Positions 4,586-60,853 of a DNA stretch of 64,000 bases are shown piece after piece. The stretch's first letter is position 1. The number at the start of each line of letters is the position of its first letter. The translations under genes were made by a program, and so were the position numbers. Origin of the DNA: Chiloscyllium plagiosum (Eukaryota); contig NC_057718.1 in NCBI RefSeq assembly GCF_004010195.1, positions 105,585,024 through 105,649,023 of the forward strand. Direction: 5' to 3'. The notes under the pieces are model-generated. The model was given only the letters and a program-made list of their open reading frames with translations, was not told the origin of the DNA and made no database searches.

Positions 4586-5250
4586 GTTGAAAAGTATGGT
4601 GCTGGAAAAGCACATCAGGTCAGGCAGCATCCAAGAAGCAGGAGATGGATCTGGGATGAGGTGGGGGGTAGAGAGATTTGGAAACTGGTGAAGTCAATGT
4701 TGATGTTGTGTGGTTGTCGGGTCCCAAGGCAGAAGATGAAGTGTTCTTCCTCCAACTGGCTTTGATTTGGCGGTGGAGGTCCAGGGTTTGCATACCCTTG
4801 GGGGAGTGGGAGTGGGAGGTGAAGTGGTGATGGGATTAGTTTGTGCATGTGTCCCAGAGATGTTCCCTGAACCACTCTGCGAGTTGGTGCTCGATCTCCC
4901 TGATGTAGATGAGACTACATCGAGAGCAACGGATGCAGTAAATAAGGTGGGAGAGTGTACTGGAAAATCTCTGCTGGATGTGAAAAGATCCTCTAGTGCC
5001 TTGGATGAAGGTGAGGGTGGGGAGGTGTGTGCACAGGCTTTGCACCTTGTGCAGCAGGTGAGGAAAGTGCAGAGTGTAGAGGGTGGGTTAGTAGGGACCA
5101 TGGACTAACAAGGAAGTCATGGAGGGAATGGTGTTTGCGGAACGCAGGTAGGAGTGAGGAGGGAAATATATTTTTGATGATGAGGTCTTACAGTAGGTGG
5201 TGAAAATGGCGGAGGATAATCCACTGTATCTGGAGATGCATGGGGTGGAA
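4586..5250 (-). mobile_element. Penelope-like element 3' fragment (GIY-YIG endonuclease plus pLTR tail, hammerhead region deleted)
   Basis: ORFs 'LIYCIRCSRCSLIYIREIEHQLAEWFREHL' and 'EEEHFIFCLGTRQPHNINIDFTSF'. Tail at 4586-4644 is homologous to the mini-elements. Confidence 0.8.
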
Positions 5251-6230
5251 TGAGGTACTTATTGAGTCACATAAATCCGTGTTGAGCATATCTGTACCCT
5301 CAATTTTTCCTCACTATCCAATCCTCTGATTAAGATGAACTCCCTAAAGTCCTTCCCACACTATTGGTTATGCAGTTTGTTCATTGCATTGCCATAGGTA
5401 TTTGGCCTGTTGAATATCAAGTCTATAAATGTTTTAAACTTTCACTTATGATACTTCTTCATCATTCTAAAATACTTGAGGCACTCAGTTTTTTTTAATG
5501 TGCACTTTATACTTGTACGTAAAATTCATTCTTCACACAAGTACATATTATTTAACTTAGTTTTGTTTGTGAATTGGCTGCATTCCCCCCTCACATTCAA
5601 GTTTTTACTTTGATATGATATATAAATCTCACCAATTTACATTCACATCAAGTTCTAAATAAAAGTTAGGAACAATAGGCATCTAGATTGCCTCACTGAA
5701 GGAAGCATTCTTTCTACATTTGTCACCTTCCTTTAGTACCTTACGGATCTTAATTAGATCTCCTCCATTCTTCCAAACTCCAGAGAGTATCGACTTAAAC
5801 TGCTCAACCTCTCTTCATTAGACACATTCCTGACCTCCAATCCAATGAACCTCCTCTAAGCGGCCTCCAATACAATTGCATCCTTCCTCAAGGAGAAAGT
5901 GAGGTCTGCAGATGCTGGAGATCAAAGTTGAAACTTTATTGCTGGAACAGCACAGCAGGTCAGGCAGCATCCAGGGAACAGGAGATTCGACGTTTCGGGC
6001 ACAGGCCCTTCTTCAGGAATGAGCAGAGAGTGTTCAGCAGGAGAAGATAAAAGGTAGGGAGGAGGGACTTGGAGGAGGGGCGTTGGAAATGTGATAGGTG
6101 GAAAGAGGTCAAGGTGAGGGTGATAGGTCGGAGTAGGATGGAGCTCTTTCCACCTATCACATTTCCAACGCCCCTCCTCCAAGTCCCTCCTCCCTACCTT
6201 TTATCTTCTCCTGCTGAACACTCTCTGCTC

Positions 6231-6266
6231 ATTCCTGAAGAAGGGCCTGTGCCCGAAACGTCGAAT
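6231..6266 (+). ncRNA. Type I minimal hammerhead ribozyme motif (mirror copy on - strand 5985-6020)
   Basis: attc CTGAAGA a gggc-ctgt-gccc GAAA CGTC gaat: stem I attc/gaat, intact core, ACGU palindrome. Confidence 0.85.
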
Positions 6267-6309
6267 CTCCTGTTCCCTGGATGCTGCCTAACCTGCTGTG
6301 CTGTTCCAG

Positions 6310-7021
6310 NNNNNNNNNNNNNNNNNNNNNNNNNNNNNNNNNNNNNNNNNNNNNNNNNNNNNNNNNNNNNNNNNNNNNNNNNNNNNNNNNNNNNNNNNNN
6401 NNNNNNNNNNNNNNNNNNNNNNNNNNNNNNNNNNNNNNNNNNNNNNNNNNNNNNNNNNNNNNNNNNNNNNNNNNNNNNNNNNNNNNNNNNNNNNNNNNNN
6501 NNNNNNNNNNNNNNNNNNNNNNNNNNNNNNNNNNNNNNNNNNNNNNNNNNNNNNNNNNNNNNNNNNNNNNNNNNNNNNNNNNNNNNNNNNNNNNNNNNNN
6601 NNNNNNNNNNNNNNNNNNNNNNNNNNNNNNNNNNNNNNNNNNNNNNNNNNNNNNNNNNNNNNNNNNNNNNNNNNNNNNNNNNNNNNNNNNNNNNNNNNNN
6701 NNNNNNNNNNNNNNNNNNNNNNNNNNNNNNNNNNNNNNNNNNNNNNNNNNNNNNNNNNNNNNNNNNNNNNNNNNNNNNNNNNNNNNNNNNNNNNNNNNNN
6801 NNNNNNNNNNNNNNNNNNNNNNNNNNNNNNNNNNNNNNNNNNNNNNNNNNNNNNNNNNNNNNNNNNNNNNNNNNNNNNNNNNNNNNNNNNNNNNNNNNNN
6901 NNNNNNNNNNNNNNNNNNNNNNNNNNNNNNNNNNNNNNNNNNNNNNNNNNNNNNNNNNNNNNNNNNNNNNNNNNNNNNNNNNNNNNNNNNNNNNNNNNNN
7001 NNNNNNNNNNNNNNNNNNNNN
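6310..7021. other. Assembly gap (N run)
   Basis: Run of N. Confidence 1.
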
Positions 7022-9084
7022 GGTAGTGCCGATACAGTCATCAATGTAGCGGAGGAAAAGATGGGGGGTGGGGCCAGTGTAGTTGCGGAAGATGGATTGT
7101 TCCACATACCCTACGAAGAGGCAGGCATAGCTGGGGCCCATGTGGGTGCCCATGGCTACTCCTTTTGTTTGGAGAATTGGGAGGATTGGAAAGAAAAGTT
7201 GTTCAGGGTGAGGACCAGTTCGGTCAGTCGAAGGAGGGTGTCGGTGGAGGGGTACTGGGTGGTACGGCGGGAAAGGAAGGAGCGGAGTGCTTTGAGTCCT
7301 TCGTGATGGGGGATGGAGGTGTACAGGGACTGGATGTCCATGGTGAAGATGAGGCGTTGGGGACCGGGAAAGCGGAAATCCTGGAGGAGGTGGAGGGCGT
7401 GGGTGGTGTCACGAACGTAGGTTCCTCAAGTAAAGGGTCCAAAATTGTGTGCAATACTCCAGTTGCCGTCTCATTGATGCCTTTTTACACTCTATTCCTT
7501 TCATAATAAATGCCCTCCTGATTACCTGCTGTACCTGCATATTAGTTTTCTGTGATTCATGCAAAAGGACACCCAGATACCTCTGCACTACTCTGAAGTT
7601 TCTCTTCATGAATTACTTCAGATACTATGTTGCAATTTTTAAAAAAGTTTCTAATAATCTTATACAGTTCTCACTCATACACTTGATATGAAAAAAATGC
7701 CCATAAAAACCCATTCAGATTTTTTCCAACTTAAGTGTTGAATCTAATGTAAAAGCAAAGTTCTATCTAGACTCTATATCAGATAGCCAATCCTTTAATA
7801 GTATGTTTAAATTGTCAATCAAAGTAAAAAGGAAGAACTCCCAGCTGAGATAATCCACAGAACATGAAATAAATCAATTTTTCTGCAATCCATTAAAATT
7901 CTAGTCCGAAATAATATTAACAATATGATGAAATATTAAGCATCTTGATAACAGAAACAGAGTAGCAGATCTGAGTCAGCTGGGGATATTGTGCCAAAGG
8001 CCAAGAATAACTAACATTGAGACACACAAAATGAAGCAAAACTACAAGGTTAATGCAACAGTGCTGGAACTACTGATAATTGAAATAAAATGCTGGAATT
8101 AATGCTGTTGTTGCAGTAGTGAAATCTATTATAACAGGACAAATATGTGGCTGAATCCAGAGTTAAATTTTAACTTAATTTGAAGTGGTGTAGTTCTCAG
8201 ATAGCAATGGAGATGGTGTAGTTAGTTCTGTCATAGGAGGAGGGAGGGAAGTGAAGTGGTTTTTGTGAAATAAGCACAGATATGCCAAATAATGAACTAT
8301 CGAGATGAGAAAACAATTAAGAGGTACAGTTTGCTCTGAAAAGATATAGAGTGATTTTACGAAGAGGAAAGCTAAATTTAACAGGTAATTTAAATCAAGC
8401 GTTTTTGGCAACTATACAAGATAACTCAATGAGTAGAGGTTGCCATTGAGGCAAGTGTTCATCTTGAGTACGCCTTCATAAATGACCCAAACAACATATT
8501 ACAATTGGAAACTGTCGCACCTTTGAGATAAAACAAGCATAAAATCACACAGTTCACAATAGCATATCTGAAATCCAGATCCAAAGACCAGGAAATGGCC
8601 TAAATAGGACAGAACTCTCAGAAATGAGGGAAGAAATAAATGTCGGAGAAAGTTAGTTTGCATGTCAGTAGAAGACACGAGACTAAATGCTTGCTGTTGA
8701 GTATGCAGGCTAAATCAACATGTAGCATCAATAGGTTCAGACCAAATACACATGATGCTAAATAGATTAACAAGCAACTTAAAAAATAGTAAAGAAGAAA
8801 AATGACCTTAACAAATCTTGCAGACAGGAAGCTGAGAAGGTTCACTGGGATGAAAACAGCAACATGCAGAAACAGGTCAAAAGGTTGATCGTAAGGGCAA
8901 AGAGAGACCTAGAAAAAAGCAAGCTGCAGAGGCAAAGCATAATGAGAATGAAATTCTATCAGTATTATAACAGTAATAGAAATGTCAGAAGAAGGGAGAA
9001 TATTAAAAGATGCAAAAAGGGCAAAAGAGATAATAAATTTCATAAAGAAAGAATGAATGAATTTGTATTTATATAACACTCCTC

Positions 9085-13558: not shown

Positions 13559-14184
13559 TATGTGCAAGTGTGGTGCATTCATTGAATAATCATTGATGTA
13601 CATATGAAAGGACACAGATGGATTGTGGAGTTAGGAGCTATACATTTGCAATTTTTCACTTTGTTAAATAGTTTGACTTGACGGTTAGTCTTCTCCTTCA
13701 GCAAATAGCTCTGAAAAATGTATCTGCTAGTTCTTTCTTGTAGGTAACTAACATGTGATATGTTGAATTTTTGTGTTGTAAAATTCAACAATGCTGCCCT
13801 TGTACAGCACTAACCCACATCCAAGAAAAGCCGAATGATTGCACTTCACCTTGTCACTTGTCCCAAGCCCTCAGCATCATCATTCTCCAGAACTGTATTG
13901 CCATCCCTGTTACTATTCCCAAGAACATCTCTACCAGTCCCAGTAAAATCCTAGTAACTCCTTCCCATGTGCTCAAACAATCCAGGACAGTTTTCCCTGT
14001 GCTGCCAAATCCCAACCTATCCACCTAGAGTTCTTTAAAACTACCAAATTTGTCTCACTCTGCAGCTTCAGCTGCTCAGTCCAAAACAATTCGCCCAACA
14101 GCATCGAATTCACGATTGGAGACAATAACAGAGAGTGGTGAACTCGGCCCAGACAATCACAAAGTCCAACCTCCCATCTACAGA

Positions 14185-14403
14185 GGAGAAAGTGAGGTCT
14201 GCAGATGCTGGAGATCAGAGCTGAAAATGTGTTGCTGGAAAAGCGCAGCAGGTCAGGCAGCATCCAGGGAACAGGAGAATCGACGTTTCGGGCATAAGCC
14301 CTTCTTCAGGAATCCTGAAGAAGGGCTTATGCCCGAAACGTCGATTCTCCTGTTCCCTGGATGCTGCCTGACCTGCTGCGCTTTTCCAGCAACACATTTT
14401 CAG
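14185..14403. mobile_element. Palindromic mini-Penelope insert, 14-bp TSD ctcccatctacaga
   Basis: Perfect 94-bp arms 14218-14311 and 14313-14406 plus a 33-nt unpaired tail. TSD at 14171-14184 and 14404-14417. Confidence 0.92.
14310..14347 (+). ncRNA. Type I minimal hammerhead ribozyme motif (mirror copy on - strand 14277-14314)
   Basis: gaatc CTGAAGA a gggc-ttat-gccc GAAA CGTC gattc. Confidence 0.88.
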
Positions 14404-15299
14404 CTCCCATCTACAGAATCCATTTACCGCTGTCAAGGAAAGGCTGCCAGCATTCTCAAAGATCCATCCCACCCTGGCAATGCTTTTATACAACTTCTAC
14501 CATCGAGGAGAAGGTACAGAAGCCTGAACACATGCACCAGCCGGTTTTGTAACAGTTTCTACCCTACTGTTGTTAGAATACTGAATGGACTCTCAAACTC
14601 TTAACATTTGCCTGTACCTGTGTTTTTGCTTTTGCTGTTGTTTGCCTTTTATTTACTTATCTATGCTACTTAACTCTGTGATCTGCCTGTATTGTTTGCA
14701 AGACAAAGCTTTTCACTGTGCCTCGGTACACTTGACAATAAATTCAATTCAATTCACAGACTCCAAAACTGTTATGGAGTGCACCTTGAACATGGTACAC
14801 ACTTCAGGTACTGCATATCTGTATATTCACAGTCAGAACTTTTGAAGTAGCAGGTGGGTACATTACAATGCGATTTGAGAGATTTAAGCAAGTCGTCGTT
14901 GCATTTAAATAAAGATCTTTAAAGTAAAAACACAATATAATAACAGAAGGAAGGCATTTAGCACCCTTGTCCCTAGAATGGCTCTGCTGTTCAAGCCTAA
15001 TTTAGCTTAAACTATGTAGTTGGCTTTAAAGTGAAACCTGCAGTTTAAAATTTTGCTGTTGTGAGCTTTGAGCAAGTTTATGTTCAAGAGGTGCACTGAA
15101 AGAGCAGCCTAATTTAAGTGGCTGAAACTAGATCCTCAAGAATAGACTAAGACAAGCCCTTTGCATTGGAGGCATATGTAAGTAGCCAACTTAATGAGAC
15201 TTGTACCTAAGAGTGTGACTTACATGAGTGTCAGAGTTGAGCATCTCAAGTAGTTCAATGGAGGAAGCTGCGACAATACTATGGCATTAATAGGGGCAT

Positions 15300-15870: not shown

Positions 15871-16209
15871 AAATAGAGGGATGTTTGGCTGCTCTTTCAT
15901 AAACGAAGCAGCTGATTGGTAAGTTCTTCGATTAGGTAGTTCAAACCTGATATGTGATCACGGATAGGAGGGTGTGATTAAGGGAGGCAGACATGGAGTC
16001 CAAAGGGCAGCTATCAGAAACCTTTGTCCCTGCAACTGTCCAACAATACAAATTTCTGGCAAACTATGTCTGTGAGAGCAGGGGTTGCAGCAAATTAGCT
16101 GACCATGACACAGTGGCCCACGGGCCATTCAAGAAAGGGGAGGAACTAGGAATGTAGTAGTGCTAGAAAATGGTATAATCAGGGAGATAGATACTATTCT
16201 CTGCAACTA

Positions 16210-16355
16210 GGAGAAAGTGAAGACTGCAGATGCTGGAGATCAGAGTCGAGAGTGTGGTGCTGGAAAAGCACAGCAGATCAGGCAGGAAAATCGATGTTTT
16301 GGGCAAAAGCCCTTCATCATGAATGCCCTTTTCCAGCACTACACTCTCGACAGTG
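16210..16355. mobile_element. Mini-Penelope insert (degenerate hairpin), TSD ttctctgcaac
   Basis: Starts ggagaaagtga; short inverted arm cttttccagcactacactctcgac. TSD at 16197-16207 and 16356-16366. Confidence 0.8.
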
Positions 16356-16696
16356 TTCTCTGCAACCATGAGTGAGAGATCTGAAGGCTGTGTTGCCTGC
16401 CTGGGGCTGTGGTGGGGGGGAGGGATGCTACCAGTTGTTGTCACCCATGTTGATACGACATTGATAAGAACGGAAAAGAGCTTGCTGAAAGACTTTGAAC
16501 ACGCAGAAGCTAAACAGAAAAGCAGACCCCTCCAAGGATTAGAAGAACTCAAACAAAGAATTAGGAGGGTTAAAAAGGGACCATGAAATTTCTTCGGCAA
16601 CAGGATTAAGGAAAATCCTAAAGTGTTTTATACACATATAAGGAGCAAGAAGATAACTAGAGAAAGAGTCACTCCATTCATGGACACAGAAGGGAA

Positions 16697-16840: not shown

Positions 16841-17687
16841 CCCCATACCATGTGAATTTATGTGTACATTTGGAGGAAGTGGGTGAGGTTCTTAAGGAAT
16901 ACATTGCAACAGTATTCACAAAGGAAAAGGATGGGGTGAATGAGTCCAAAAGTAGAGGGCATAGGGTCAGGGTGAGAGGGGAATGATATAAAAGGGACCT
17001 AAGGGGCAACCTTTGCATGCAGAGGGTGGTGCATGCATGGAATGAGCTGCCATGGGAAGTGGTGGAAGCTGATACAATTACAGCATTTAAAAAGCATCTA
17101 GGTGGATATATGAAAGGGTCTGTTTCCGTGCTGTATATCTCTATGACATGGTGGATGGCGAGTCTTGGGAGGGGGTATAGTGATATTCTAGGGCATGCCA
17201 CCATAAAAATGGTGATGGTGTTGGGTATTTTGGAAAGCATTAAAGAAGACAAGTTCTGGGATCTATCCCAAAATGCTAAGGGAGGCAGGTTAAATAATTG
17301 CTGAGGCCTTGTACTAAATCTTTGTATCCTCTTTCATCACAGAAGAGGTCCCAGAGAACTGGAGAATTGCCAACATTGTTCCTTTGTTTGAGAAGGGTAA
17401 CAGGACAAATCCAGAAAATTATAGGTCAGTGGGCCTTACATCAGTGTTAGGGAAATTAATGGAGAATATTCTTAGGGATTGGATTTACTCACATTTAGAA
17501 AACTATGCATGTATTAGCGATTGGCAGCATGTCATTGTGTGGGGAAGGTGGTGTCTTACAAATTTGATTGAGTTTTCTGAAAAAGTGACAAAGACGATTG
17601 ATGAAGGCAGGGCAGTTAATGTTGTCCATACGGACTTTAGCAAGATGTTTGACAAGGTCCCTCATGTCAGGCTGATACAAATGTTGA

Positions 17688-17912
17688 CAGTGTGGTGCTG
17701 GAAAAGCACAGCAGGTCAGGCAGCATCCAAGGAGCAGGAGAATCAACGTTTCAGGCATAAGCCCTTTGTCAGGAATGAAATTCATTCCTGATGAAAGGCT
17801 TATGCCCGAAACATCGATTCTCCTGCTCCTCGGATGCTGTCTGACCTGCTTCGCTTTTCCAGCACCACACTGTCAACTCGGATCTCCAGCACCTGCAATC
17901 TTCACTTTCTCC
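17688..17912. mobile_element. Palindromic mini-Penelope insert in a CR1 RT, 15-bp TSD tgatacaaa(t/a)gttga
   Basis: Imperfect ~95-bp arms centred near 17780 with decayed hammerhead cores. TSD at 17673-17687 and 17913-17927. Confidence 0.88.
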
Positions 17913-20759
17913 TGATACAAAAGTTGAAGTTACATGGGTTTTGTGGTGAGCTGTGGTAAGATGGATGCAGAACTGCCTTGGTCATAGATGACAGAGTAAT
18001 AGTGGAAGGGTGTTTTTGTGACTGGATATATGTGACCAGTGGTGTTCTGTAGGGATCAATGCTGGGGCCCTGTTGTTTTATTAATATATTTAAATATTTG
18101 GAGGAGAATGTAGGTAGCCTGATTAGTAAGTTTGCAGACAACACAAAGACTGGGGACATTGTGGATAGTGAGGACTACCAGAAGGTAGAACAAGATGTAA
18201 ATAAACTTGAAAATTAGGTGGAAAAATGGCAGATGGAGTTTAATATAGACAAATGCAAGGTGATGGATTTTGGGAGATCTAACGCAGGAGGGAAGTATAC
18301 AGTAAATGGCAGAATCCTAAGTAGCATCAATATACAGAGGCATGCAGATATTCAGGTCCACAGTTCCATGAAAATTGCAACACAAGTGGATAAGCTGGTC
18401 AAGAAGGCATATGGTATGCTTGTCTTCATTGGTCTAGGCATAGAGTATAAAAATTGGCAAGTCATGTTGCAGCTGGATAGAACTTTAGCTAGGCCTCTTT
18501 GGAATACAGTGTACAGTTCTTGTTGCCACATGACAAGTGTGGAGGCTTTGGAGAGGATACAGAAGCACTATGCGCCAGGATGTTGCTGGGTTTCGACAAT
18601 ATTAGCTATGAAGAGAGATTGGATAAACTTGATTTGCTTCCAATTGAACTTTGAAGCTAAGGGGCGACCTGATTGATGCTTATAAAATAATGAAAGGGAT
18701 GGATAGAATGGATAATCAGTCTTTTTTCCCAGCATAGAAATGTCAACTCCTGGGGGACATAGGTTTAAGGTAAAAGGGGGTACATTTAAAGGGACATATG
18801 AGAGGCAGGTTGTTTATTTTTAAACACAGAGGGTGGTAAGTGCCTGGAAATGTGCTGCCAGCAGTGGAGGAGGCAGGTACAATAGCAACGTTTAAGAGGT
18901 ATCTTGACAGAAACATGAATAGAGGGATATGGACTGTGTAAAGGCAAAAGACTTTTAGTTTAAAAAGGCACCATGAATCTGTATAGTTATGGTGAGCTTA
19001 ATGGCCTGTTCTCCTGCTGTATTGTTCTGTGATTACTTTCACATTATACCCAAGCCGAGAGCAAACTGGCTTAGGGTAAATAAATTCAAAGAGTTAAATG
19101 CACAGCTTGGAAACTGGTGTAGGTAGAATGGATTTCAGTTCATGAGGCATTGACAGCAGTACTGGTGGAGAAAGGAGTTGCCCTAGTGGGTTGGCCTTTA
19201 CTTGAACTCTGCTGGGACAGTGCCCTGGCAAATCAAATAACTAAGGTTGTAGAGAGGGCTTTAATCTAATGTGGGGGAGGGTTCTGGAGAGGCAATTTGT
19301 GGTGGCTTTGCAGGGCTGCAATTTTGATATCCAAAGTATGATTAGAAGGGACAGAGTGTACAAGCATAAAAAAGCAACATATAGGTCAAAGTGTGAATAA
19401 AATGGTAAAAAGGCAAAAGGGCAAAAAGGCTCTGTACCTAAATGAATGTACAATCTGGAACAAAATAAATAAATTAACAGCAGAATACAGGTTGATGGCT
19501 ATGTTCTTACTGCCATTACGGAGATATGATTACAAAGAGATTAAAGCTGTGAACTAAATTCATATTTCATCTGCTAGTTAGCCATTCCTCAATCAAAACA
19601 AATAGATTACCCCAATACTATGAACTCTTTTCTTGTACATTAAACTTTTTATGTGGCACATTATTAAATGCCTTTTGGAAATCCAAATGTATTATATTTA
19701 CTGGTTCACCTTTATCAATCCTGCTTGTTAATATCCAAAAACTCTAATAAATTTGATGAATATGAAAAAAAACTTTAAAAATAGATGTTAATAAATATGG
19801 ACAGCTTTTCTAAGTTTATTGCAAGTGCTGAAATTATCACCAGCCAATTACATAATTGTTGGGTTTTATATATTCAAACAATTTCCATGCCTTTTAGGTC
19901 AGTTGATCCAATCAGATAAAGTTCCAATAAACCTTCTATAACATTACTGCTGCAGGCAGTGAGAATACAATACTAAGTTAGCCCCCCGTAACCTTCTGCA
20001 AAAGCGCTCTGGAAAAACTTGCAATGATTCCTGTATAAATCACAATGCCGCTTCAGGACTACCAAATAGCTGCATTATCCTTGTGAGAGACACAATATCA
20101 ACCATGGTATAATTCTGAGAGCCCATAGTTTGTTTTGAATTTCTTTACAAATTAAACTATCCACATTGCACAAACTAACAGGCTCTCTGAGTCAATTAAA
20201 GGCTGTCACCTGAGCTCCTAAGATTAAGTGACATCTACATATCTCTGAGTTTGCTTTTTTAGTTTGCAATGCTACCTGAATCCCTTGATTGTTACTCAAT
20301 TCCACGTATTTACTGTACATGTATAATACTATGAATGACACCAAGAATTCTACTCTACAGAAAATTTCACTCTACAGATATCGAGGTCTTCACTTCAATG
20401 AAGATATAGCACGAATGGTTTTCCACATCACAGGATAAAATTTATACAAAACTCCTTCTAATTCAGAGGGTTTTATAAGTGGTTTACAGAAAAAAGATGG
20501 TGTTATATATTCATAACACCCATCAGAATTGTATATTAAATAAAGAGGTTATGTTGTATTGATGACCATTATAACAACATACCAATCAAGTGTATGTACT
20601 TAATTTTGCTGTTAAAACTAGTTTGAAGTAAGGATAGTCTACATACAATTTGAAGAATCCCAAATACAAAACAATATAAAACAACAAAATAACAGGTCTA
20701 TTAAAATGATATTTCAAATCTCCCCCAATGTTTGAATGGATATATGTGCTGCATGGCAG

Positions 20760-21709: not shown

Positions 21710-22600
21710 AGACCATAAGACATAGGAGCGGAAGTAAGGCCATTCGGCCCATCGGGTCCACTCCGCCATTCAATCATGGCTGATAGGTATTTCAACTCCA
21801 CTTACCCGCATTCTCCCGTAGCCTTTAATTCCTTGTGACATCAAGAATTTATCAATTTCTGCCTTGAAGACATTTAGCGTCCCAGCCTCCGCTGCACTCT
21901 GCGGCAATGAATTCCACAGGCCCACCACTCTCTGGCTGAAGAAAAGTCTCCGCATTTCTGTTCTGAATTTACCCCCTCTAATTCTAAGGCTGTGTCCACG
22001 GGTCCTAGTCTCCTCGCCTAACGGAAACAATTTCCTAGCGTCCACCCTCTCCAAGCCATATATTATCTTGTAAGTTTCTATTAGATCTCCCCTTAATCTT
22101 CTAAACTCCAATGAAAACAATCCCAGGATCCTCAGCCGTTCCTCATATGTTAAACCTACCATTCCAGGGATCATCCGTATGAATCTCCGCTGGACACGCT
22201 CCAGTGCCAGTATGTCCTTCATGAGGTGTGGGGCCAAAAACTGTACACAGTACTCTAAATGGGGCCTAACNNNNNNNNNNNNNNNNNNNNNNNNNNNNNN
22301 NNNNNNNNNNNNNNNNNNNNNNNNNNNNNNNNNNNNNNNNNNNNNNNNNNNNNNNNNNNNNNNNNNNNNNNNNNNNNNNNNNNNTCCTCAGTACTATCTG
22401 CCTGTCCACCTAACTTCGTATCATCGGCAAACTTCGCTAGAATGCCCCCAGTCCCTTCATCCAGATCATTAATATATAATGTGAACAGCTGCAGCCCCAA
22501 CACTGAACCCTGCGGGAGACCGCTTGTCACCGGCTGCCATTCCGAAAAAGAACCTTTTATCCCAACTCTCTGCCTTCTGTCAGACAGCCAATCCTCAATC
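21710..22600 (-). mobile_element. Young CR1 LINE 3' portion (spans gap 22271-22384)
   Basis: Open frames 'GLPQGSVLGLQLFTLYINDLDE...KFADDTK' and 'LERVQRRFIRMIPG...LRGDLIETYKI...FFSQRVVGLWNSLP'; CpGs retained. Confidence 0.9.
22271..22384. other. Assembly gap (N run)
   Basis: Run of N. Confidence 1.
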
Positions 22601-24894
22601 CATATGTGTAGATCAGACAAATTATAGAGAACCAGATGGGAATCAAAAGATTTTAGATCCCAAGGAAAGGTCTTAAGAGTTGAACCACCAAGAGACACTG
22701 AATTCTCCAGAGTGTTGTCTGGCCTGCTGAGTATTCTCAAGTGAATTTTAATTCCAGTGACAAGATATCTGCATAGTGAACCTGCACTAACACAGAGTTA
22801 TGAAAAACAGAAAATAATCACTGAACTCAAATACTGCTGAGAGATTGCCAGTGAGTGAAAGAGTGTGAGAATGGAATCCAGATTTATCGTTCACCATCAG
22901 TGCTGGAATCCCTCCTTTAAACTTTGCTTGTCTACTTAAATTCATCTCACCAAGTTTTAGATTTGCAGACTAGTAAAATCTAAAAAAAACTGAAGAAAGG
23001 GCATAATTGCAACTAATAAAAAAGGAAATCAAAGCAAATGAGAACAGGCAGATGTATTATACGATAAAATAAAGAATCAAGAATGAGAGGTCTGTGTTGT
23101 AAAAACAGCTGTAAAGGGATTAAAGGATTAACTCTTGGTCAGGGCATTTTGCATGGTACAGTATTCATGGAGATAATGATAAAGCAATTCACACCCAGGT
23201 TAGGTGTAAAAAGATTTAGATGTGTTTGCATATTGAGTGCCAGTTAGTTGCCATATCAGAAATATTTTAGGGGAAAATTTCAAATCCCAAATCACAGTTA
23301 ACTGTCAATTTACATCCCAACACAAATTTTAATAGCTTCAACAATACAGTGAAATAAATGTAACAGAAGCACTGCCTCTGGACAAACCAAGTCTCTCAAG
23401 TTTTTCAGATGACTGCACAATCTCAACAGCGACAATGCCAGCAAATCAAAATATGGCCATCAGCAGTTTGGCCACTATTTTGCAAAGATTTCACAGTGCC
23501 AGCAGCCTTAGGCTACACTGCAAGGAGAAATCTTGTAATGATTCCTCAAAGTGAAAGTTAACATTAGACATTGGATTTTTATTGCCAAATGCTGAAAATG
23601 CTTAGATGATTCATCAAACTAATACAGCAAGCTGGGTTCAATTTTTAAGTGATGTTGATTCATGTTTAAGCCAAAAAAACCCTGGAGTTTCAATTTACTT
23701 CCTTGGTTACCCCACTTGGCTATTTTCTGAGAGCTGACAGGAAAAACATTAGAGCAAAGGTCTAACAGTCCTGAAGTACAGAGTGCTGATAAACTTCCTT
23801 CCAGCTATCATTAAGCATTAGCTTGCAACATTATTGAGAGCTACAGGTGGAAGCACAGCTCTGATTAACAGGTTTAATGTTGAAATCATCAACATTGCAC
23901 TGGAACCTTATTCACACTACCAAATAAACTGTAGCATCATGATTAGAAAAACGATCTCAATAACTGCCTCCCAGGAAAGAGCTCACATAATAGTCTGTAG
24001 AAAATAGACAATTGTAGACACACAGGGTGTTCAGCAGGTACCTCAAGTGGCATAGAACATTGAAAAGTATAACACAGTACAGACCCTTCGGCCCTTGTTG
24101 TGCCAGCCTTTTATCCTACTTGAGCACAGCATGTCATAAAGTACGAGAATGCGACTGCCCTGTCAATAACACCAACACACAAGACCGAATAAAATGCACT
24201 CTTACTTAGCGTTAAGTGTGAAACTTCAACTGGAGTGGTTTGTTTATCTGAAATCAGCCCATTAAAACTAAATGGAAAGAATAGGCAAAGATCATGATTA
24301 CAATGATGCTCACTATTTTTGCAAATAGGAAGCCAATTGGTTTAGGAGCATTAAAGAGCCTTCTTAAGTTGAAAGAAATAAATCGTGTAAATCTGGAAAA
24401 TACTATTAAAATGGCAGGAGCAAAACAGGTCTAAATGATAGGGAGAGCAGAGGAGTATGAAGGAAAGAATGCTGCAGAAAATTTGGTGAAATAGCCAAGC
24501 TGTATTTACAACCTTTACATCTATTTAGATACTATTACCATAAGCTATCATGTATAAAAATAATGTTTATTTGGACTATGCTTTAATATTTCATTTATAA
24601 ACCTAACAGATCATACTAGGATTTTACAGATCAATTTTTAGGTTTCAGCTGGAGTACTGTGGACAATTCTGAGTTCTACACTTTAGGAACTATGGTAAAG
24701 GGCAGGTTTATTGGGATGTTACCAGTAAGGTGAGGGCTTCACTTATGGGAAGAGACTGGAAAAGTTTGGAACACACAAAACAGAAACTGTGGAGAAACTC
24801 AGCAGGTCTGGCAGTATCTATGGAGAGGTAAACAGTTAATGCTTGGAGGGACTGGATAGCAAAGATGATTCTCAATAGGAGCGTGAGTAACAGG

Positions 24895-27320
24895 GTAGTT
24901 ATTAGCTAGGACCTTAACATCCCCAATATTGACTGGGAATACTATAGTTCAAGTAGTTTAGATGGGTCAGTTTTTGTTCAATGTTTGCAGGAGGGTTTTC
25001 TGACACAGTATGTAGATAGGCTAACAAGGAACAATGCCATATTGGATTTGGTACTGGGGAATGAACCCGGCCTGTGTTAGATTTGGAGGTAGGTGAGCAC
25101 ATTGGCGATACTGACCATAATTTGGTTATGTTTACAAAAGCAATGTGCAGGGATAGGTATATACCACAGGGAAAGAGGTATAATTGGGGGAAAGGCAATT
25201 ATGATGCGATTAGGTAAGATTTAGGATGGGGAAGGAAACTACAGGGGATGGACACTCTTGAAATGTGGAGCTTATTCAAGGAACAACTACTGCGGGTCCT
25301 TGATAAGCATATATCTATCAGGCAGGGAAGCAGTTATCGAGAGAGGGAGCCATGGTTTACAAAAGAAATTGAAGCTCTTGTCAAAAGGAAGAGGAAGGCT
25401 TATGTGAGGATGAGGCATGAAGGCACAATTAGGGGACTTGAGAGTTATAAGTTAGCCAAAAAAGATCTAAAGAGAGGGCTAAAAAGAGCCAGGACGGGAA
25501 TGATAAGTTGTTGGCGGATAGGACCAAGGAAAACCCTAAGGCCTTTTATAGGTATATTAGGAATAAAAGAATGACTAGAGTAAGATTAGGGCCAACCAAA
25601 GACAGTTGAGGAAAGTTGTGTGTGGAATCTGAGGACATAAGGGAAGCGCTTGATGAATACTTTTTGTCAGTATTCAGATCGGAAAAGGGAAACGTTAGTG
25701 AGAATACAGAGATACGGGCTATAAGATTTAGATGGGATTGAGGTTGACAAAGAAGAGGTTTTAGCAATTTTGGAAGATGTGAAAATAGATAACACCCCTG
25801 GGCTGGATGTGATTTATCTTCAGATTCTCTGGGAAGTCAGGGAGGAGATTGCAGAGCCTTTGGCTTTGATCTTTATGTCAGCATTGTTGACAGGTGTATG
25901 CCAGAAGATTGGAGGATAGTAAATGTTGTTCCCTTGTTTAAGAAGGGGAGTCGGGACACCCCTGGTAATTACAGGCCAGTGGGCCTTACTTTGGTTGTGA
26001 GTAAGGTATTAGAAAAGGTTATAAAAGATAGGACTTATAATCATCTGGAAAGGAATAATTTGATTAGGGATAGTCAACACGGTTTTGTAAAGAGTAGGTG
26101 GTGCCTCACTAACATTGAGTTCTTTGAGAAGGTAACAAATCAGGCGGATGAAGATAAGGCGGTTGATGTGGTGTACACGGACTTCAGTAAAGCATTTGAT
26201 AAGATTCCACACGGTAGGCTAATGCACAAAATCAGGAGTTTCAGGATGGAGGGTGATTTAATGGTTTGGATCAGAAATTGGCTAGCTGAAAGAAGACAGA
26301 GGGTGGTGGTTGATGGGAAATGTTCATCCTGGAGCTCAGTTACCAGTGGTGTGCCACAAGGATCTGTTTTGGGACCACTGCTGTTTGTCGTTTTTATAAA
26401 TGATCAAGATATGGGTGTAGAAGGATGGGTTAGTAAATTTGCAGATGACGCTAAGGTAGGCAGAGTTGTGGACAGTGCCGAAGGATGTTGTGGGTTAGAG
26501 GGACGTAGATAAGATGCAGAGCTGGGCTGAGAAGTGGCAAATGGAGTTTAATGCGGAAAAGTGTGAGGTAGTTCACTTTGTAAGAAATAACAGGAATGCA
26601 GAGTACTGGGCTAATGGTAAAATTCTTGGTAGTGTAGATGAACGGAGAGATCTCGGTGTCCACGTGCATAAATCCCTGAAAGTTGCCACCCAGATTAATA
26701 GGGTTGCTAAGAAGGAATATGGTGTGTTGGCATTTATTGGTAAGGGGATTTTGGAGCCACAAGGTCATGCTTCAGCTGTACAAGACACTGGTAAGGCCGC
26801 ATCTGGAGTTTTGCGTGCAGTTCTGGTCACCACATTATAGGAAGGATGTGGAAGCCTTGGAACGAGTTCAGGCAAAATTTACTAGGCTGCTGCCTGGTAT
26901 GGAAGGAAGGTTTTATGAGGAAAGGTTAAGGAAATGGAGGCTGTTGGAGAGAAGAAGGTTGAGAGGTGACTTAATTGAGACGTGTAAGATAATCAAAGGG
27001 TTAGATAAGGTGGATAGTAAGAACCTTTTTTCATTGGGTGGTGAAGGCTAACACAAGGGGACATAGCTTTTAATTGAGGAGTGATTGATTTAGAAAAGAT
27101 ATTAGGGGTAGTTACTTTACTCAGAGAGTAGTAGGGGTGTAGAATGTCCTGCCTGCCTGAGTAGTAGACTCACCAATGTCAAGAGCATTTAAACGGTCAT
27201 TGGACATACATATGGATAATAATAGAACGAGGTAGGTTAGATGGGCATCAGATTAATTTTGCAGGTCGGTGTAAAATCGAGGGCTGAAGGGCCTGTAGTG
27301 CGCTGTAACATTCTATGTAG
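24895..27320 (+). mobile_element. CR1 LINE ORF2 (end of endonuclease to 3' UTR), frameshifted
   Basis: 'PEDWRIVNVVPLFKKG...NYRPVGLT...DFSKAFDKIPH...GVPQGSVLGPLLF...KFADD' and downstream motifs. Confidence 0.92.
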
Positions 27321-32030: not shown

Positions 32031-32259
32031 GTCCATGCATCTTGCAGATTTGTTTCTCTACGTCTTTTCCACGAGTTGGTGGCCTATATACTACAGTGAG
32101 CAATTTATTTACATCTTTTCTGTTCCAGCAAACTAGATTGTACCCTTATGACATCCTCCTTCTCCTACACTGCAATGTTCCCTTTCATCAATACTGTAAT
32201 CCCTCCCCATTTTCACCCTTTCCTAAACATGTATCAGGAATATGTAACAGTCAATCCTG

Positions 32260-32383
32260 GAAAAGCGCAGCAGGTCAGGCAGCATCAAAGGAACAGGAGA
32301 ATCGACGTTTCGGGCATAAGCCCTTATTCAGGATTTTCCAGCAACACATTTTTAAGCTCTGATCTCCAGCCCTCACTTTTTCC
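32260..32383. mobile_element. Mini-Penelope insert (antisense arm plus sense tail), perfect 15-bp TSD taacagtcaatcctg
   Basis: TSD at 32245-32259 and 32384-32398; hammerhead core mutated (CTGAATA). Confidence 0.88.
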
Positions 32384-32450
32384 TAACAGTCAATCCTGCT
32401 CTGGAGCTGGCTATCTCTAAAAACCTGATCATCCTATTTCCATAATGGAA

Positions 32451-33213: not shown

Positions 33214-34241
33214 TTTGGAGATGCCAGTGTTGGACTGGGGTGTATAAAGTAAAAAATCACACAACACCAGGTTATAGTCCAACAGGTTTGATTGGAAGCA
33301 CTAGCTTCCGGAGTGCTGCTCCTTCATCAGGTGGCTGTAAAGTACATAGATGTAAGACAGAATTTATAGCAAAAGTTTACAGTGTGATGTAACTGAAATT
33401 ATACATTGAAAATACCTTGATTGTTTGTTAAGTTTCCCATCTGTTAGAATGACCATGTTAGTTTCACTTCTTTCATATATATATATATATATATATCTTT
33501 CATATACACATGGGAGTGTTCCCTCCCAGTTGGAGAATACTTCACTGGTCCAGGCCATTCAACCTCAGACCTCCGGGTGACCATCCTCCAAGGCGGACTT
33601 CGGGACAGGCAGCAGAAAAGTGGCCGAGCAGAGGCTGATAGCCACGTTTGGTACCCAAAGGGAGGGCCTCAACCAGGATCTTGGGTGCATGTCATATGAC
33701 AGGTGACCTCATTGCATTACACACACTCACCCTTTCACAGACTTAGGCCCCTTTACATACACACACACATACACACACATATATGTTTGTGAGGTGAATT
33801 TGTACTTGCAGTTACATTGTACTTTGCTCAAAGTCTGCATGAATTCATGTAAGATTCTGTTCCTTCATTTTTTAGATTAGAATCAGTCAAAAGATTATGG
33901 GACTGACAGCAGTACACAGGGAGCTAACACCTCCAACACATTATACGGGCTGACACCAATTGTTAAAGTTCACCTGAGAATGTAACTTTTTAAAAGGTTT
34001 TGCAATTTAAATATGAAAGAAGTGAAACTAACATGGTCATTCTAACAGATGAGAGACTTAACAAACAATCAAGGTATTTTTCAAAGTATAATTTCAGTTA
34101 CATCACACTGTAAACTTTTGCTATAAATTCTGTGTCTTACAATTGTGTCCTTCACAACCACCTGATGAAGGAGCAGTGCTCCGAAAGCTAGTGCTTCCAA
34201 TTAAACCTGTTGGACTATAATCTGGGGTTGTGATTTTTAAC
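33214..34241 (+). mobile_element. Second Penelope-like family: inverted pLTR, GIY-YIG C-terminus, pLTR
   Basis: Inverted arms ~33245-33478 and ~34010-34243. 'SLPVGEYFTGPGHSTSDLRVTILQGG...AEQRLIATFGT..EGLNQDLG'. TSD ttcaacta(a/t)tga at 33202-33213 and 34242-34253. Confidence 0.82.
34159..34193 (+). ncRNA. Type I minimal hammerhead ribozyme motif (mutated mirror on - strand 33299-33333)
   Basis: cac CTGATGA a ggagc-agt-gctcc GAAA GCTA gtg; AGCU palindrome. Confidence 0.8.
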
Positions 34242-51865: not shown

Positions 51866-52937
51866 CCTACCTTCACAAAACAGTGCTGACTATTCCAAAT
51901 CAAATTTTTCCTTTCTAGATGATTACAAATGCTATCTATTACAATCTGTTCCAAAACTTTGCCCACAACAGAAGTAAGGCTCACTGGTCTATAATTACCA
52001 GGGTTGTCTTTACTCCCCTTCTTGAACAAGGGAACATTTGCTATCCTCCACCTTCCGGCACTATTCCTGTAGACAATGACGACAATAAAGAGCAAAGCCA
52101 AAGGCTCTGCAATCTCTTCCCTCAATTCCCAGACAATCCTAGGATAAATCCCATTCAGCCCAAATGACTTATCCATTTTCACACTTTCCAGAATTACTAA
52201 CACCTCCTCCTAATAAGCCTCATCCCATCTACTCTAATAGCCTGTATCTCAGTATCTCCTCAACAACAGTCTTTTTCCTGCTTGAATACTGATGAAAAAT
52301 ATTCATTTAGAGCCTCCCCTATCACCTCTGACTCTATGCACAACTTCCCACTGCTGTCCTTGATTGGGCCTAATCTTACTCTAGTCATTCTATAGGTATG
52401 TCAGGACTAAAATAAAGTTTTAGGGTTTCCTTGATCCTATCTGCCAAAGACTTCTCACGTCCCCTCCTGGCTCTTCTTAGCTCTCTCTTTAGGTTCTTCC
52501 TGGCTAACCGTAACTCTCAAACACCCTAACTGAGACTTCACACCCTCATCTTTACATAAGCCTCCTTCTTCCTCTTGACAAGAGATTCAATTCTTTAGTA
52601 AACCATGGTTTCCTCACTCGACCATTTCCTGCCTGCCGGGCAGGTACGTACTTATCAACAACACACTGTAGCTGCTCCTTGAACAAGCTCCACTTTCAAT
52701 TGTGCCCATCCCCTGCAGTTTCCTTCCCCATCCTATGCATCGTAAATCTTGCCTAATCGCATCATAATTGCCTTTCCCATGCTATAACTCTTGCAATATC
52801 TACCTATCCTTTTCCACCCGTAAAGTAAACACAATAAAAATGGTAGAACATAGAATATAGAAAAGTACAGACAGAACAGGCCTTTTGGCCCACGACGTGC
52901 CAAGGATTAATCCTAAAAAATTGTGGTCACTATTACC

Positions 52938-53350
52938 TGCAACAACTATTTCTGTCCCTGCTCTATGTCTCCAAAATGGCTTTTCCAGCAACACATTTTT
53001 CAGCTCTGATCTCCAGCATCTGCAGTTCTCACTTTCTTCTAGTTGATTTTAACCTACTGCGAATCCTCTTGCAAGGACGCCTTCCTTGAAGAAGGTCTCT
53101 TCCTCCCTCTACAAGGATTTCAGTGAGTCCCTCTCTCACTGCACCCCCCAGGTCATCTCCTCTGCCCTGAAGCTCTTCAGCCACGTCCTCAAATAGACTC
53201 GCTACCACAGCCACATCTCCATTCCTGAAGAAGGGCTTATGCCCAAAACATTGATTCTCCTGCTCCTTGGATGCTGCCTGACCTGCTGCACTTTTCCAGC
53301 AACACATTTTTCAGCTCTGATCTCCAGCATCTGCAGTCCTCATTTTCTCC
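52938..53350 (+). mobile_element. Penelope insert with direct tail repeat, ORF 5' fragment and templated 5' patch; TSD actattacc
   Basis: Tail copies at 52979-53039 and 53291-53350; 'ALKLFSHVLK*TRYHSHIS'. TSD at 52929-52937 and 53352-53360. Confidence 0.8.
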
Positions 53351-58489: not shown

Positions 58490-60530
58490 AGCTAATTAGG
58501 GACCAGAGCTGAAAATGTGTTGCTGGAAAAGCGCAGCAGGTCAGGCAGCATCCAGGGAACAGGAGAATCGACGTTTCGGGCATAAGCCCTTCTTCAGGAA
58601 TCCCTAATTAGGGACCAAAAAGGGGATTTCTGCACAAAGTCAGAGGGCTTGGATAAGGTACTGAATGAATACTTTCTGTCTTCACTAAGAAAATAGACAC
58701 TACCAAAGCCAGAGTGACATAAGGTCGTTGAAACACTGGACAGCTCAAAATTAATTAATAGAAAAGCCTGGCTGTACTTAAATTTACCAAGATGAGAATA
58801 TCTGAAACCAAGGATACTTGGGGAAATAAGTGTGCAAATTAGAGACACACTGATCATACCATATTGCAATCCTCCTTAGGTACGGATGGTGCCAAAAGAT
58901 GGGATAATTGCACTGTTACACCAGTGTTCAAAAGATTGGTTCAAGGACAGATATTTTCTAATCAAATTGTTCAGAGATGCTATTACATGCCTCTGAAGGA
59001 TATGAACCTGGGTCACCTGGCTCAGAAGGATTCAACGATAAGTTAAGCAACTACAGGCCAGTGAGTTTAACCTCCGTGGTGAGGAAAATTATATAAATGT
59101 GAATTAGAACAAAATTAATAGCCATTTAGATGAGTTGAATTAATTAAGGAAAACCAATTTGGATTTGTTAAGGACTAATTGCACTTAAGTAACTTGATTG
59201 AGTTTAGTGATAAGCATCATGCTGTTGATCTGGTGCAGATGGTCTTCCAAAATGCATTTGAAAAAGAACTACATAACAGGTAAAATGAAACCTCATGGAA
59301 TAAAACGGACATCAAAGGGATTCTTGTAGTGCTGTGGTAGTATCCCTACCTCTGAGCCAAGAGATCTGGGCTCAAGTCCCTCCTGTTCCAGACCTGCAAA
59401 ATAACATCGCTGAACAAGTTGATTTATAAAGTATCTAAATTGGACATTGGATGGAAACAAAACTATCTGAGTATTGGGAAACAGAGAGTAGTGGCAAATC
59501 ATTGCTTTTGGGGCTGGAGGAAGATATGAAGTGGGATTCCCCAGGATCAGAATTGGGACCATCGTTTTTCTTTATCTATATTAAATGACCTGGACATTGT
59601 TGTGAAAAGCATAAATTCAAAGGTTGAGGATGACACAGAATTTGGAAGTATAGTGAACTACAAGTAGGACAGACAGAATTCAGGAGGACATAAGTTGGTG
59701 GAAAGGGCTGACAATAAGAAGAAATTCAGTGTAGTTGTGTAAAACAACAGCCTTTCAGGAAGAATGAAGGGAGGCAATATGTAATAAAGGGTACAACACT
59801 AAATGGTGTGGAAGCAAAGGGAATTTGAGGTATATGTACATAAATCATTGAAGGTGACACAACAGGTTGAAACTATATTAATAAGTCACATGGGATGTTA
59901 AGTTTAATAAATAGAGGCATGCAGTACAAAAATAGAGATTATGATGAGCCTTTATCAAACATTCTTGGCATGACACTTTAGGACAAATGTCAATGCACCA
60001 GAAAAGGTACAGAAAAGATTTACAAGTATGGCTCCAGGGATGAGAGACTTCAGTTTAAAGGATACATTGGAAAAGTTAGGGCAGCTGTCCTTAGAGAAGG
60101 CGAGAGGACCTTTGATAGAAGTATTCAAAATCATAAGTATTCTCAACAGACTACAATGGGAGAAACTGGTTCTCACTTGCCCACCAATGGGAACAGAGGA
60201 CACCGATTTTAGATGAATGGCAAAAGGACCAATGGCAACATGAGAATAAACTTTTCATGCGAAAGGTTGGGATCTGCAATGTATCATCTGACAGTGTGGT
60301 GGAGGCAGGTTTGCTTGAGTGATTAGGGTCTGGAATGTACTGCCTGAGTGTGGTGAAGATAGATTCTATCAAAATTTTCAAAATGGGACAAGATAATTAT
60401 TTGAAGAAATAAAATGAAGGGCCTCAGAGAAAGTGTGCAATCAGACTAGCTGAATTGTACTTGCAGAGAGCCAGAAGAGACATGACAGCCCAAATGTCTT
60501 CCTTTTATGTGGTAACTATTCTAAGATTTG
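58490..60530 (+). mobile_element. Old degenerate CR1 ORF2 with mini-PLE and SINE-like inserts
   Basis: aactacaggccagtgagtttaacc (NYRPVSLT), gacctggac...gatgacaca and 'MAPGMRDFSLKDTLEKLGQLSLEK'. Confidence 0.7.
58506..58603 (-). mobile_element. 98-bp single-arm mini-Penelope with intact hammerhead core (58565-58602), 14-bp TSD ctaattagggacca
   Basis: Identical to 14218-14315. TSD at 58492-58505 and 58604-58617. Confidence 0.9.
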
Positions 60531-60557
60531 ATATCAAAGAACAGAAACCAACATATG

Positions 60558-60787
60558 TTTAGATCAGACTGGTGCTGGAAAAGCACAGCAGGTCAGGCAG
60601 CATCCAAGGAGCAGGATAATTGACGTTTTGGGCGTAAGCCCTTCATTAGGAATCATTCCTGACGAAGGGCTTTTGCCCGAAACGTCGATTTTCCTGCTCC
60701 TCGGATGCTGCCTGACCTGCTGTGCTTTTCCAGCACCACTCTGATCTAAACTCTGGTTTCCATCATCTGCTGTCCTCACTTTTGCAT
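60558..60787. mobile_element. Palindromic mini-Penelope insert, 15-bp TSD agaaaccaacatatg; + strand hammerhead 60655-60690
   Basis: Arms centred near 60654; attc CTGACGA a gggc-tttt-gccc GAAA CGTC gatt. TSD at 60543-60557 and 60788-60802. Confidence 0.88.
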
Positions 60788-60853
60788 AGAAACCAACATA
60801 TGCCAATATAAAACATGAAAGTTTTAATCTAAGATTGTTTAATGTATCACATA

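What the first reader, a model, noticed from the sequence alone, without database searches (positions are those of the whole stretch)
14171..14417. Miniature palindromic retro-insertions carrying back-to-back hammerhead ribozyme motifs
Seen: a 219-bp non-coding insert with a 14-bp TSD. It is a perfect 94-bp hairpin plus a 33-nt unpaired tail (ggagaaagtgagg...), with CUGAAGA/stem II/GAAA-CGUC on both strands meeting at the hairpin centre. Related TSD-flanked units occur at 16210, 17688, 32260, 48999, 50408, 58506 and 60558. Their sequence matches the terminal repeat attached to Penelope RT/GIY-YIG at 4586-5250 and 5893-7421. Known: PLE pLTRs carry minimal type I hammerheads and often insert with an inverted pLTR and a short tail. 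Inference: this is a dense non-autonomous ribozyme-hairpin form, either a retrozyme-like mobile RNA or a stereotyped abortive PLE integration product.
Basis: partly seen in the sequence, partly recalled or inferred. Interest (0 to 1): 0.85.

Follow-up and report, generated by a model that had tools for sequence, protein, structure and literature searches.

The report
Penelope insertion hairpins recording transposition mechanism
This 219-base hairpin is one of many thousands of tiny head-to-head Penelope retrotransposon insertions, each joined differently at its centre, so it is likely a by-product of two-sided copying from a capped RNA end rather than a mobile ribozyme, and it offers a genomic record of how these elements likely insert.

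Summary
In detail: 219-bp insert, exact 14-bp TSD, 94-bp perfect stem (last 3 bp are TSD), 33-nt tail, one minimal hammerhead per strand. The retrozyme reading does not. At least 8,984 such centres exist genome-wide, but 27 unselected ones show 23 junction types. Thirty loci sharing the focal centre come in both mirror forms (14 vs 15) and several subfamilies, both arms matching. Longer versions (0.5-3.9 kb) have the same outer ends; head-to-tail tandems number 50. About 75% of arms stop in an 18-nt window just upstream of the ribozyme core, peaking at an initiator-like site and often preceded by an extra G (67 of 100 vs 18 of 100 one base on, counted by eye). Only 1 of 100 starts at the ribozyme cut. 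Best reading: each copy is an independent insertion of a Neptune-like Penelope element; both target strands likely prime cDNA at two internal sites of uncleaved RNA, the cDNAs run off at a capped 5' end and are end-joined. The architecture is known; this mass miniature form and the cap signature were not found in the searches made.

The parts
14171..14184 (.). Left target-site duplication (14 bp), inside a LINE-like host repeat
   Evidence: other copies of the host repeat carry one copy of it
14185..14217 (-). 33-nt Penelope 'tail', present on one arm only; likely the stretch between the two RT start sites
   Evidence: PMC11167929 for the start-site meaning in the anole element
14185..14313 (-). 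Tail-bearing arm, q128 to q0 (q0 = 14313, the inferred RNA 5' end)
14278..14313 (-). Minimal type I hammerhead motif; predicted cut between 14282 and 14281; stem I has one U-U mismatch
   Evidence: sequence
14310..14347 (+). Second minimal hammerhead motif, on the opposite strand; predicted cut after 14342
14313..14403 (+). Inverted arm, q2 to q92; three further bases pair with the TSD (microhomology); base 14313 is shared by both arms
14404..14417 (.). Right target-site duplication
17672..17927 (+). Older full palindrome, arms 90% alike, different centre, 16-bp TSD (1 mismatch)
60543..60802 (+). Older full palindrome, arms 91% alike, different centre, 15-bp TSD
16197..16372 (-). Lopsided unit: full tail arm plus 33-nt inverted piece, TSD
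32245..32398 (+). Lopsided unit: inverted arm q2-78 plus short tail arm, 15-bp TSD
50394..50527 (-). Lopsided unit with two short arms, 12-bp TSD (1 mismatch)
58492..58619 (-). TSD-flanked monomer q0-97 without tail; two extra G on the sense strand between TSD and q0
52979..53350 (+). Partial tandem: tail runs on about 180 nt into the 5' coding part of the element, then a second unit enters at q-1/q0
5892..7421 (-). Longer composite copy: 169-bp-arm palindrome of the same repeat, assembly gap 6310-7021, RT remnant
4588..5255 (-). Decayed linker/GIY-YIG remnant with truncated terminal repeat
47900..49133 (+). Decayed 5'-truncated Penelope copy (RT thumb to endonuclease) ending in the repeat at 48999; no TSD found

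Best explanation
The unit is a TSD-flanked, head-to-head pair of the terminal repeat of a Penelope-like retrotransposon, and each such hairpin was likely built anew at insertion by two-sided target-primed reverse transcription. Shown: architecture, copy diversity, end positions, microhomologies, extra G. Inferred: the endonuclease makes a staggered cut about 14-16 nt apart; one target 3' end primes at the tail end (q128), the other about 35 nt further in (mode q89-97), each with 1-4 nt of pairing to the RNA; the template is uncleaved RNA that starts at an initiator-like site at q0, just before hammerhead stem I, and continues past the tail into the coding region; RT copies only about 90-130 nt, runs off the 5' end, often adding a C opposite the cap; the two same-polarity cDNA ends are then joined by short microhomology or bluntly, one usually trimmed. 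When RT starts at the same sites in the 3' repeat of the long RNA, the same steps would give the 0.5-4 kb inverted-repeat copies. The hammerheads are passengers of the repeat, not the cause of the hairpin.
For: Independent formation: 23 junction types among 27 unselected short palindromes; of 30 loci chosen for the focal 29-nt centre, the tail is on one side in 14 and on the other in 15, 1 unassignable (one search scored 13 vs 15 of 28 paired), inserts 173-226 bp in 28 of them; both arms carry the same loop-II subfamily tag in 41 of 41 assignable pairs, 5 of 46 not assignable. Same outer ends and TSDs in 0.5-3.9 kb copies (L024, L047, L099, L106, L126). Two start sites: 3' ends of 47 young arms fall at q120-129 (24) or q85-101 (18), 5 lower. 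Priming: inverted-arm start overlaps the TSD end by >=2 nt in 26 of 44 loci vs 6.6% for shuffled TSDs; base after the tail is T, the first base of the RNA continuation, in 43 of 59; 1,560 tails run 8 nt into that continuation. Fixed 5' end: pooled 24% of 68,538 arms extend into the body and 76% stop in q-7..q10 (4 of 100 and 48 of 100 rows), against 4 of 100 stopping in the equal-sized q17-34; modes q0 (22) and q1 (19) of 100; monomers and template-jump tandems also start there, so it is not a palindrome effect. Extra G: 67 G, 17 A, 16 T before q0 (60 of 93 after dropping 7 ambiguous centres) vs 18 G, 39 T, 43 C before q1; Fisher p=5e-8, and p=6e-6 against the G-rich antisense arm. Four subfamily references keep pyrimidine-C-A-T-T-C-C at q0 while upstream sequence differs. 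Literature: the anole Penelope protein cuts and extends both target strands, starts RT at two internal sites that bound the tail, is predicted dimeric, and does not need hammerhead cleavage in vitro (PMC11167929).
Against: No direct TSS or cap data: the one RNA run laid (2% of a poly(A) single-cell run) showed no pile of read starts and 0.9 of reads run on into unrelated sequence. An extra G could come from terminal-transferase activity at any template end, and in at least two rows the G also belongs to the target. In vitro the anole protein showed no strand difference in start site, whereas here nearly every palindrome has one tail (not explained). In unselected loci the body-extending share is higher, 15 of 47, and long palindromes often sit at assembly gaps, so short forms are over-counted. 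No full-length master copy was seen. Row counts from pattern searches are by eye and come from the first 100 places of contig C1 (C1-C2).
Confidence: 0.68

Rival explanations
1. Fold-back or self-priming: one strand (a cDNA from the tail, or an antisense RNA as proposed for rotifer Penelopes) ends near q0, snaps back and is copied to give the inverted arm.
For: Proposed for head-to-head Penelope palindromes in PMC3846280 (passages). Arms of young copies are nearly identical (median 96% within vs 90% between loci). The common q1/q9 centre could form as a 3-bp, 5-nt-loop hairpin.
Against: Fold-back from the tail strand requires the tail arm to reach furthest; the inverted arm reaches further in 13 of 25 unselected cases. 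Centres with 0-2 unpaired bases (q0/q2, q1/q6) cannot fold in cis. The inverted arm's outer end pairs with the target 3' end, as expected of a primed start. Tail-less monomers exist.
Confidence: 0.12
2. A discrete non-autonomous family or retrozyme-like RNA: a master hairpin is transcribed, self-cleaves or circularises, and is reinserted by the Penelope protein.
For: The focal 29-nt centre occurs exactly 1,380 times; TSDs; intact hammerhead cores, stem II kept while loop II varies (66 of 75 cores with 4 of 4 pairs).
Against: Same centre in both mirror forms and at least five subfamilies; 23 of 27 junction types; 50 head-to-tail neighbours vs 8,984 head-to-head (different patterns, so the ratio is rough); one dimer-requiring hammerhead per strand, buried by the hairpin; 1 of 100 ends at the cut site; tails decay into the coding continuation, not into flanks of other minis.
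Confidence: 0.06
3. Same independent two-sided insertion, but the q0 end is not a capped start: it is an endonuclease cut at ATT in the element's own DNA, a splice boundary, or an RT stop at hammerhead stem I.
For: The anole protein prefers ATT near its ORF-repeat junction; in D. virilis the intron end maps at helix I (PMC4209133).
Against: No AG acceptor precedes q0 in four subfamily references and no shared upstream exon follows from the 100 rows; a DNA cut would not add G; a structural stop would be expected at the 3' side of a helix.
Confidence: 0.1
4. Long inverted-repeat insertions were shortened later by deletion at the hairpin tip, or by assembly collapse.
For: Long copies exist and often flank N gaps.
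Against: Monomers and tandem entries share the q0 end and extra G; young minis have identical arms; centre variants are seen in raw reads.
Confidence: 0.04

Closest known systems
EN+ Penelope-like elements with inverted 5'-truncated copy, 30-40-bp tail and TSD (PMC8557442, PMC3846280; passages)
   Same: Head-to-head inverted terminal repeat, one-sided 33-nt tail, TSD, palindrome at the inverted junction, partial tandems, RT then GIY-YIG.
   Different: Here the body is absent in most copies: about three quarters of arms stop at the repeat's 5' edge, giving roughly 100,000 hairpins of 150-260 bp (extrapolated from 22 in 800 kb); TSD 14-16 bp rather than 8-10.
Poseidon of Anolis carolinensis in vitro (PMC11167929; main text read)
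   Same: Two internal RT start sites bounding the tail, near the 5' end of the coding region; both strands extended; hammerhead cleavage not marking ends.
   Different: Linker motif points to Neptune/Nematis; 1-4-nt primer microhomology is seen here; the parts read do not describe head-to-head miniatures, a capped run-off end or one-tail asymmetry.
Minimal type I hammerheads of metazoan PLEs (PMC4209133; results and discussion read)
   Same: Core, extra base after position 9, G10.1-C11.1, palindromic 15.2-16.2, no helix III; opposite-strand pairs 100-700 bp apart were noted in Schistosoma mansoni.
   Different: Here the two motifs abut; helix II is 4 bp; activity untested.
Non-LTR retrozymes (PMC7229834 passages; bioRxiv 10.64898/2026.07.22.740005 parts 1-3 of 5)
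   Same: Small, non-coding, hammerhead-bearing, derived from PLE terminal repeats.
   Different: Defined by head-to-tail tandems with mostly canonical hammerheads and circular RNA; these are head-to-head and minimal.
L1 twin priming and cap-derived 5' G (twin priming recalled; untemplated G from PMC3287187 passages)
   Same: Both target strands prime; microhomology joins; extra G at full-length 5' ends.
   Different: L1 inversions do not duplicate the sequence (recalled); here both arms copy the same 90 nt.

Membership tests
EN+ Penelope-like element (insertion of) | RT and C-terminal GIY-YIG joined to the same terminal repeat | tested here: met
   RT motifs at 7022-7165; GIY-YIG E=1.7e-4, 22.3 bits, just under the 22.6 cut-off, in L126; four window fragments gave no Pfam hit
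EN+ Penelope-like element (insertion of) | Inverted terminal repeat at the 5' side, optional 30-40-bp tail, TSD | tested here: met
EN+ Penelope-like element (insertion of) | Full-length repeat-ORF-repeat copy in the genome | tested here: inconclusive
   Only pieces seen; 1,463 matches to the 5' coding motif; L024 is a 3.9-kb unit with a gap
Neptune/Nematis clade | CX2-5CxxC linker before GIY-YIG | tested here: met
   CX4CxxC in L126; definition
Neptune/Nematis clade | RT phylogeny | not tested
   No reference RT set held
Minimal type I hammerhead | Core, extra base after 9, G10.1-C11.1, palindromic 15.2-16.2, short helix I | tested here: met
   75 of 113 arms reaching q0 keep the core; of these 66 have stem II 4 of 4, 69 stem I at least 3 of 4, 10 stem I 4 of 4, 52 the CG
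Minimal type I hammerhead | Self-cleavage as a dimer or with protein | not testable with these tools
   needs in vitro assay
Rfam hammerhead families | Covariance-model match | tested here: not met
   none at E<=1
Non-LTR retrozyme | Head-to-tail tandem units, two hammerheads on one strand | tested here: not met
   50 close head-to-tail joins vs 8,984 head-to-head centres; one motif per strand
Non-LTR retrozyme | Unit ends or joins at the cleavage site | tested here: not met
   1 of 100
Non-LTR retrozyme | Circular RNA intermediate | not testable with these tools
   only a poly(A) run was laid
Discrete non-autonomous family copied from a master | Fixed internal junction, polarity and length | tested here: not met

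The most novel reading that the evidence does not exclude
These hairpins are a fossil record, about 100,000 events deep, showing that Penelope elements insert by obligatory twin priming: a dimeric protein primes both target strands at two fixed internal sites on capped, uncleaved sense RNA, which explains the inverted repeat, the one-sided tail and the TSD in one step, and makes miniature hairpins the main product because the start sites also lie 130 nt from the cap.
Probability: 0.5. Interest if true: 0.68.

Novelty: new variant of a known kind. Interest (0 to 1): 0.48.

Why it matters
How Penelope elements make their inverted repeats and tail is described as undefined (PMC8557442), with antisense self-priming proposed in 2013 (PMC3846280) and two-strand extension shown in vitro in 2024 (PMC11167929). 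This genome gives tens of thousands of short, readable junctions that discriminate between the models, point to an exact RNA start to test, and indicate that hammerhead cleavage does not define the template. It also warns that dense back-to-back hammerheads need not be a mobile ribozyme. About 100,000 near-perfect hairpins could be a source of double-stranded RNA in the host; that is untested.

Tried and rejected
Rfam scan: no hammerhead hit; miRNA hits are generic long-hairpin matches. DNA search of the own genome with the insert returned nothing because common words are skipped; uninformative. Pfam on four decayed window fragments: nothing; one search used a shifted frame and is uninformative. 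alone hides body-extending arms because its first letter excludes C; one search was run to complete it. The tail-end test used an offset reference and was redone. Older subfamilies were left out of the young-arm count because their upstream body is unknown and would inflate the q0 peak. L119 and L125 were dropped as duplicates of L062 and L063. No RNA holder was listed for the stretch; not evidence. No earlier finding matched. Candidate full-length 5' ends L126 and L127 proved to be short tandem joins; further candidates were not seen, so a master copy remains unexamined. Rejected: retrozyme, master-hairpin family, miRNA, DNA-transposon MITE (one-sided tail, 14-16-bp TSD, RT-linked repeat), assembly artefact. 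No paper describing this miniature form or a cap-derived G in Penelope copies was found in searches; subscription papers, Repbase/Dfam entries and all supplements (notably Figs S1-S2 of PMC11167929) were not seen and may describe it.

Full report
Coordinates. q numbers run along the element's sense strand: q1 = window 14312 on the minus strand, q0 = 14313, the C of CUGA is q4, the predicted cut lies between q31 and q32, the tail ends at q128. The window lies in a 3.56-Gb genome; a 78%-identical protein relative is recorded from a bamboo shark, so the host is probably a cartilaginous fish (inference).

Observation. The insert, TSD, stem and tail are as described, with two refinements: 3 of the 94 stem pairs involve the TSD, and the quoted tail is the antisense of the element's 3' tail. 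Each strand holds one minimal type I hammerhead with the features listed in PMC4209133. Rfam does not detect it. Of the seven other sites named, two are full palindromes, three are lopsided, one is a monomer and one is the end of a longer copy without a found TSD. The target is itself a repeat, and other copies of it in three other runs carry the 14-mer once with no insert, which confirms an insertion.

Parent element. The repeat ends RT and GIY-YIG remnants in the window and in L126, a 1.3-kb inverted-repeat insertion with a 15-bp TSD, a CX4CxxC linker and a GIY-YIG match. That linker marks Neptune/Nematis; no tree was built. In rare tandem joins the tail continues into a shared coding-like sequence, so repeat plus tail is also the 5' end of the element's RNA, as in the anole element.

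Abundance. 60 random 10-kb stretches held 87 clusters of hits; 80 stretches held 22 short palindromes (25 less 3 from the window), about 100,000 if extrapolated. One tight pattern finds 8,984 centres; the focal centre occurs 1,380 times.

Not one family. Among 27 unselected short palindromes there are 23 junction types. Thirty loci picked for the focal centre have the tail on either side of the asymmetric centre base (14 vs 15, 1 unassignable), belong to at least five subfamilies, and span 173-226 bp (28 measured). Both arms share the subfamily tag in 41 of 41 assignable pairs (5 of 46 unassignable); the own partner was the best or tied-best match in only 22 of 46, as expected for young near-identical families. 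Copies of 0.5-3.9 kb have the same outer ends and TSDs. TSD lengths in 79 pairs: 49 of 14-16 bp, 9 not found by the script.

Not a retrozyme. Close head-to-tail joins number 50. A transcript through the unit has one hammerhead and is predicted to fold as the long hairpin, -199 vs -146 kcal/mol with the ribozyme enforced on the plus strand. Of 100 listed arms reaching q35, 4 stop in q17-34 and 1 at the cut (by eye; two further rows were diverged and counted as continuing).

A fixed RNA 5' end. together cover all 68,538 arms matching a 16-nt core; 4 of 100 and 48 of 100 listed rows continue into the body, a pooled 24%. In one search the ends were q0 22, q1 19, q2 9, q3 8, q4-5 6, q6 10, q7-11 8, q-1 to q-3 14, body 4 (by eye). 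In random loci 15 of 47 young arms extend into the body, 25 stop in q-5..q11, 6 later, 1 at a gap. Monomers and tandem entries also begin at q0. The base before q0 is G in 67 of 100 non-C cases but G in 18 of 100 before q1; several rows show G where the other arm's next base is not G. An untemplated 5' G in L1 and SVA is attributed to copying the cap. The q0 context resembles an initiator (consensus recalled, not from a call) and is kept across four subfamilies; D. virilis Penelope has an internal promoter with an initiator. A capped start at q0 is therefore likely but not shown; the RNA run laid gave no start pile.

Two primed ends. Young arms end at q120-129 or q85-101 (42 of 47). The inverted arm's outer end overlaps the TSD end by at least 2 nt in 26 of 44 loci vs 6.6% in shuffles, and the tail end tends to match the RNA continuation (43 of 59 at the first base; this could also reflect endonuclease preference). 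Which arm reaches further at the centre is even (11 vs 13, 1 equal), which fits two separate cDNAs joined end to end and not fold-back from the tail strand, the kind of self-priming proposed in PMC3846280. Why there is almost always one tail per insertion is unexplained.

Comparison and verdict. Inverted repeat, tail, TSD and minimal hammerhead are all known Penelope features, and opposite-strand hammerhead pairs were noted in Schistosoma. What was not found in searches is the miniature form as the main product, its stop at a fixed 5' end with an extra G, and the junction statistics. Papers seen: PMC11167929 and PMC4209133 parts 1-2 of 4; the 2026 bioRxiv preprint parts 1-3 of 5; passages only of PMC8557442, PMC3846280, PMC8969392, PMC7229834, PMC2377424, PMC3681739, PMC3287187; no supplements. 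Verdict: real feature, new variant of a known kind; independent insertion products about 0.9, full twin-priming and cap model 0.68; interest 0.48.

Noticed in passing
window 52979-53350; L126 1155-1475; L127 1137-1500: After the tail, the shared continuation reads as a short open frame of about 42 codons starting at q49, overlapping a second start codon in another frame; the long ORF may sit behind an upstream ORF.
   Followed up: partly
window 14221-14232 (minus strand, q81-92): The second start-site region ends in a pyrimidine-rich run plus AG that looks like a 3' splice site; relation to the inverted arm's start untested.
   Followed up: no
window 14120-14700: The target is a high-copy LINE-like 3' fragment (deep coverage; C-terminal peptide resembles L2/Rex-type ORF2, recalled).
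   Followed up: partly
L001 1391-1650: An old-subfamily palindrome with the tail on both arms and about 25 bp of inverted flank, an exception to the one-tail rule.
   Followed up: no
window 6310-7021; L006, L024, L047, L099: Assembly gaps sit inside long inverted-repeat Penelope copies, so long forms are under-assembled.
   Followed up: partly
window 33409-34080: A separate 76-bp inverted repeat, 95% complementary, 520 nt apart, not matching this family.
   Followed up: no
window 47520-47588, 24790-24824, 49249-49277, 50087-50111, 56306-56382: Older, more diverged relatives of the same terminal repeat from other Penelope families.
   Followed up: no
window 17318-18676, 21770-22797, 25793-27051, 51823-52209: Decayed CR1-like LINE RT fragments (family recalled from motifs); the 17688 hairpin is inserted in one.
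   Followed up: no
G000 C18:4168165-4168342: Two identical head-to-tail joins 139 bp apart: a rare short tandem array of the repeat, the nearest thing to a retrozyme arrangement seen.
   Followed up: no
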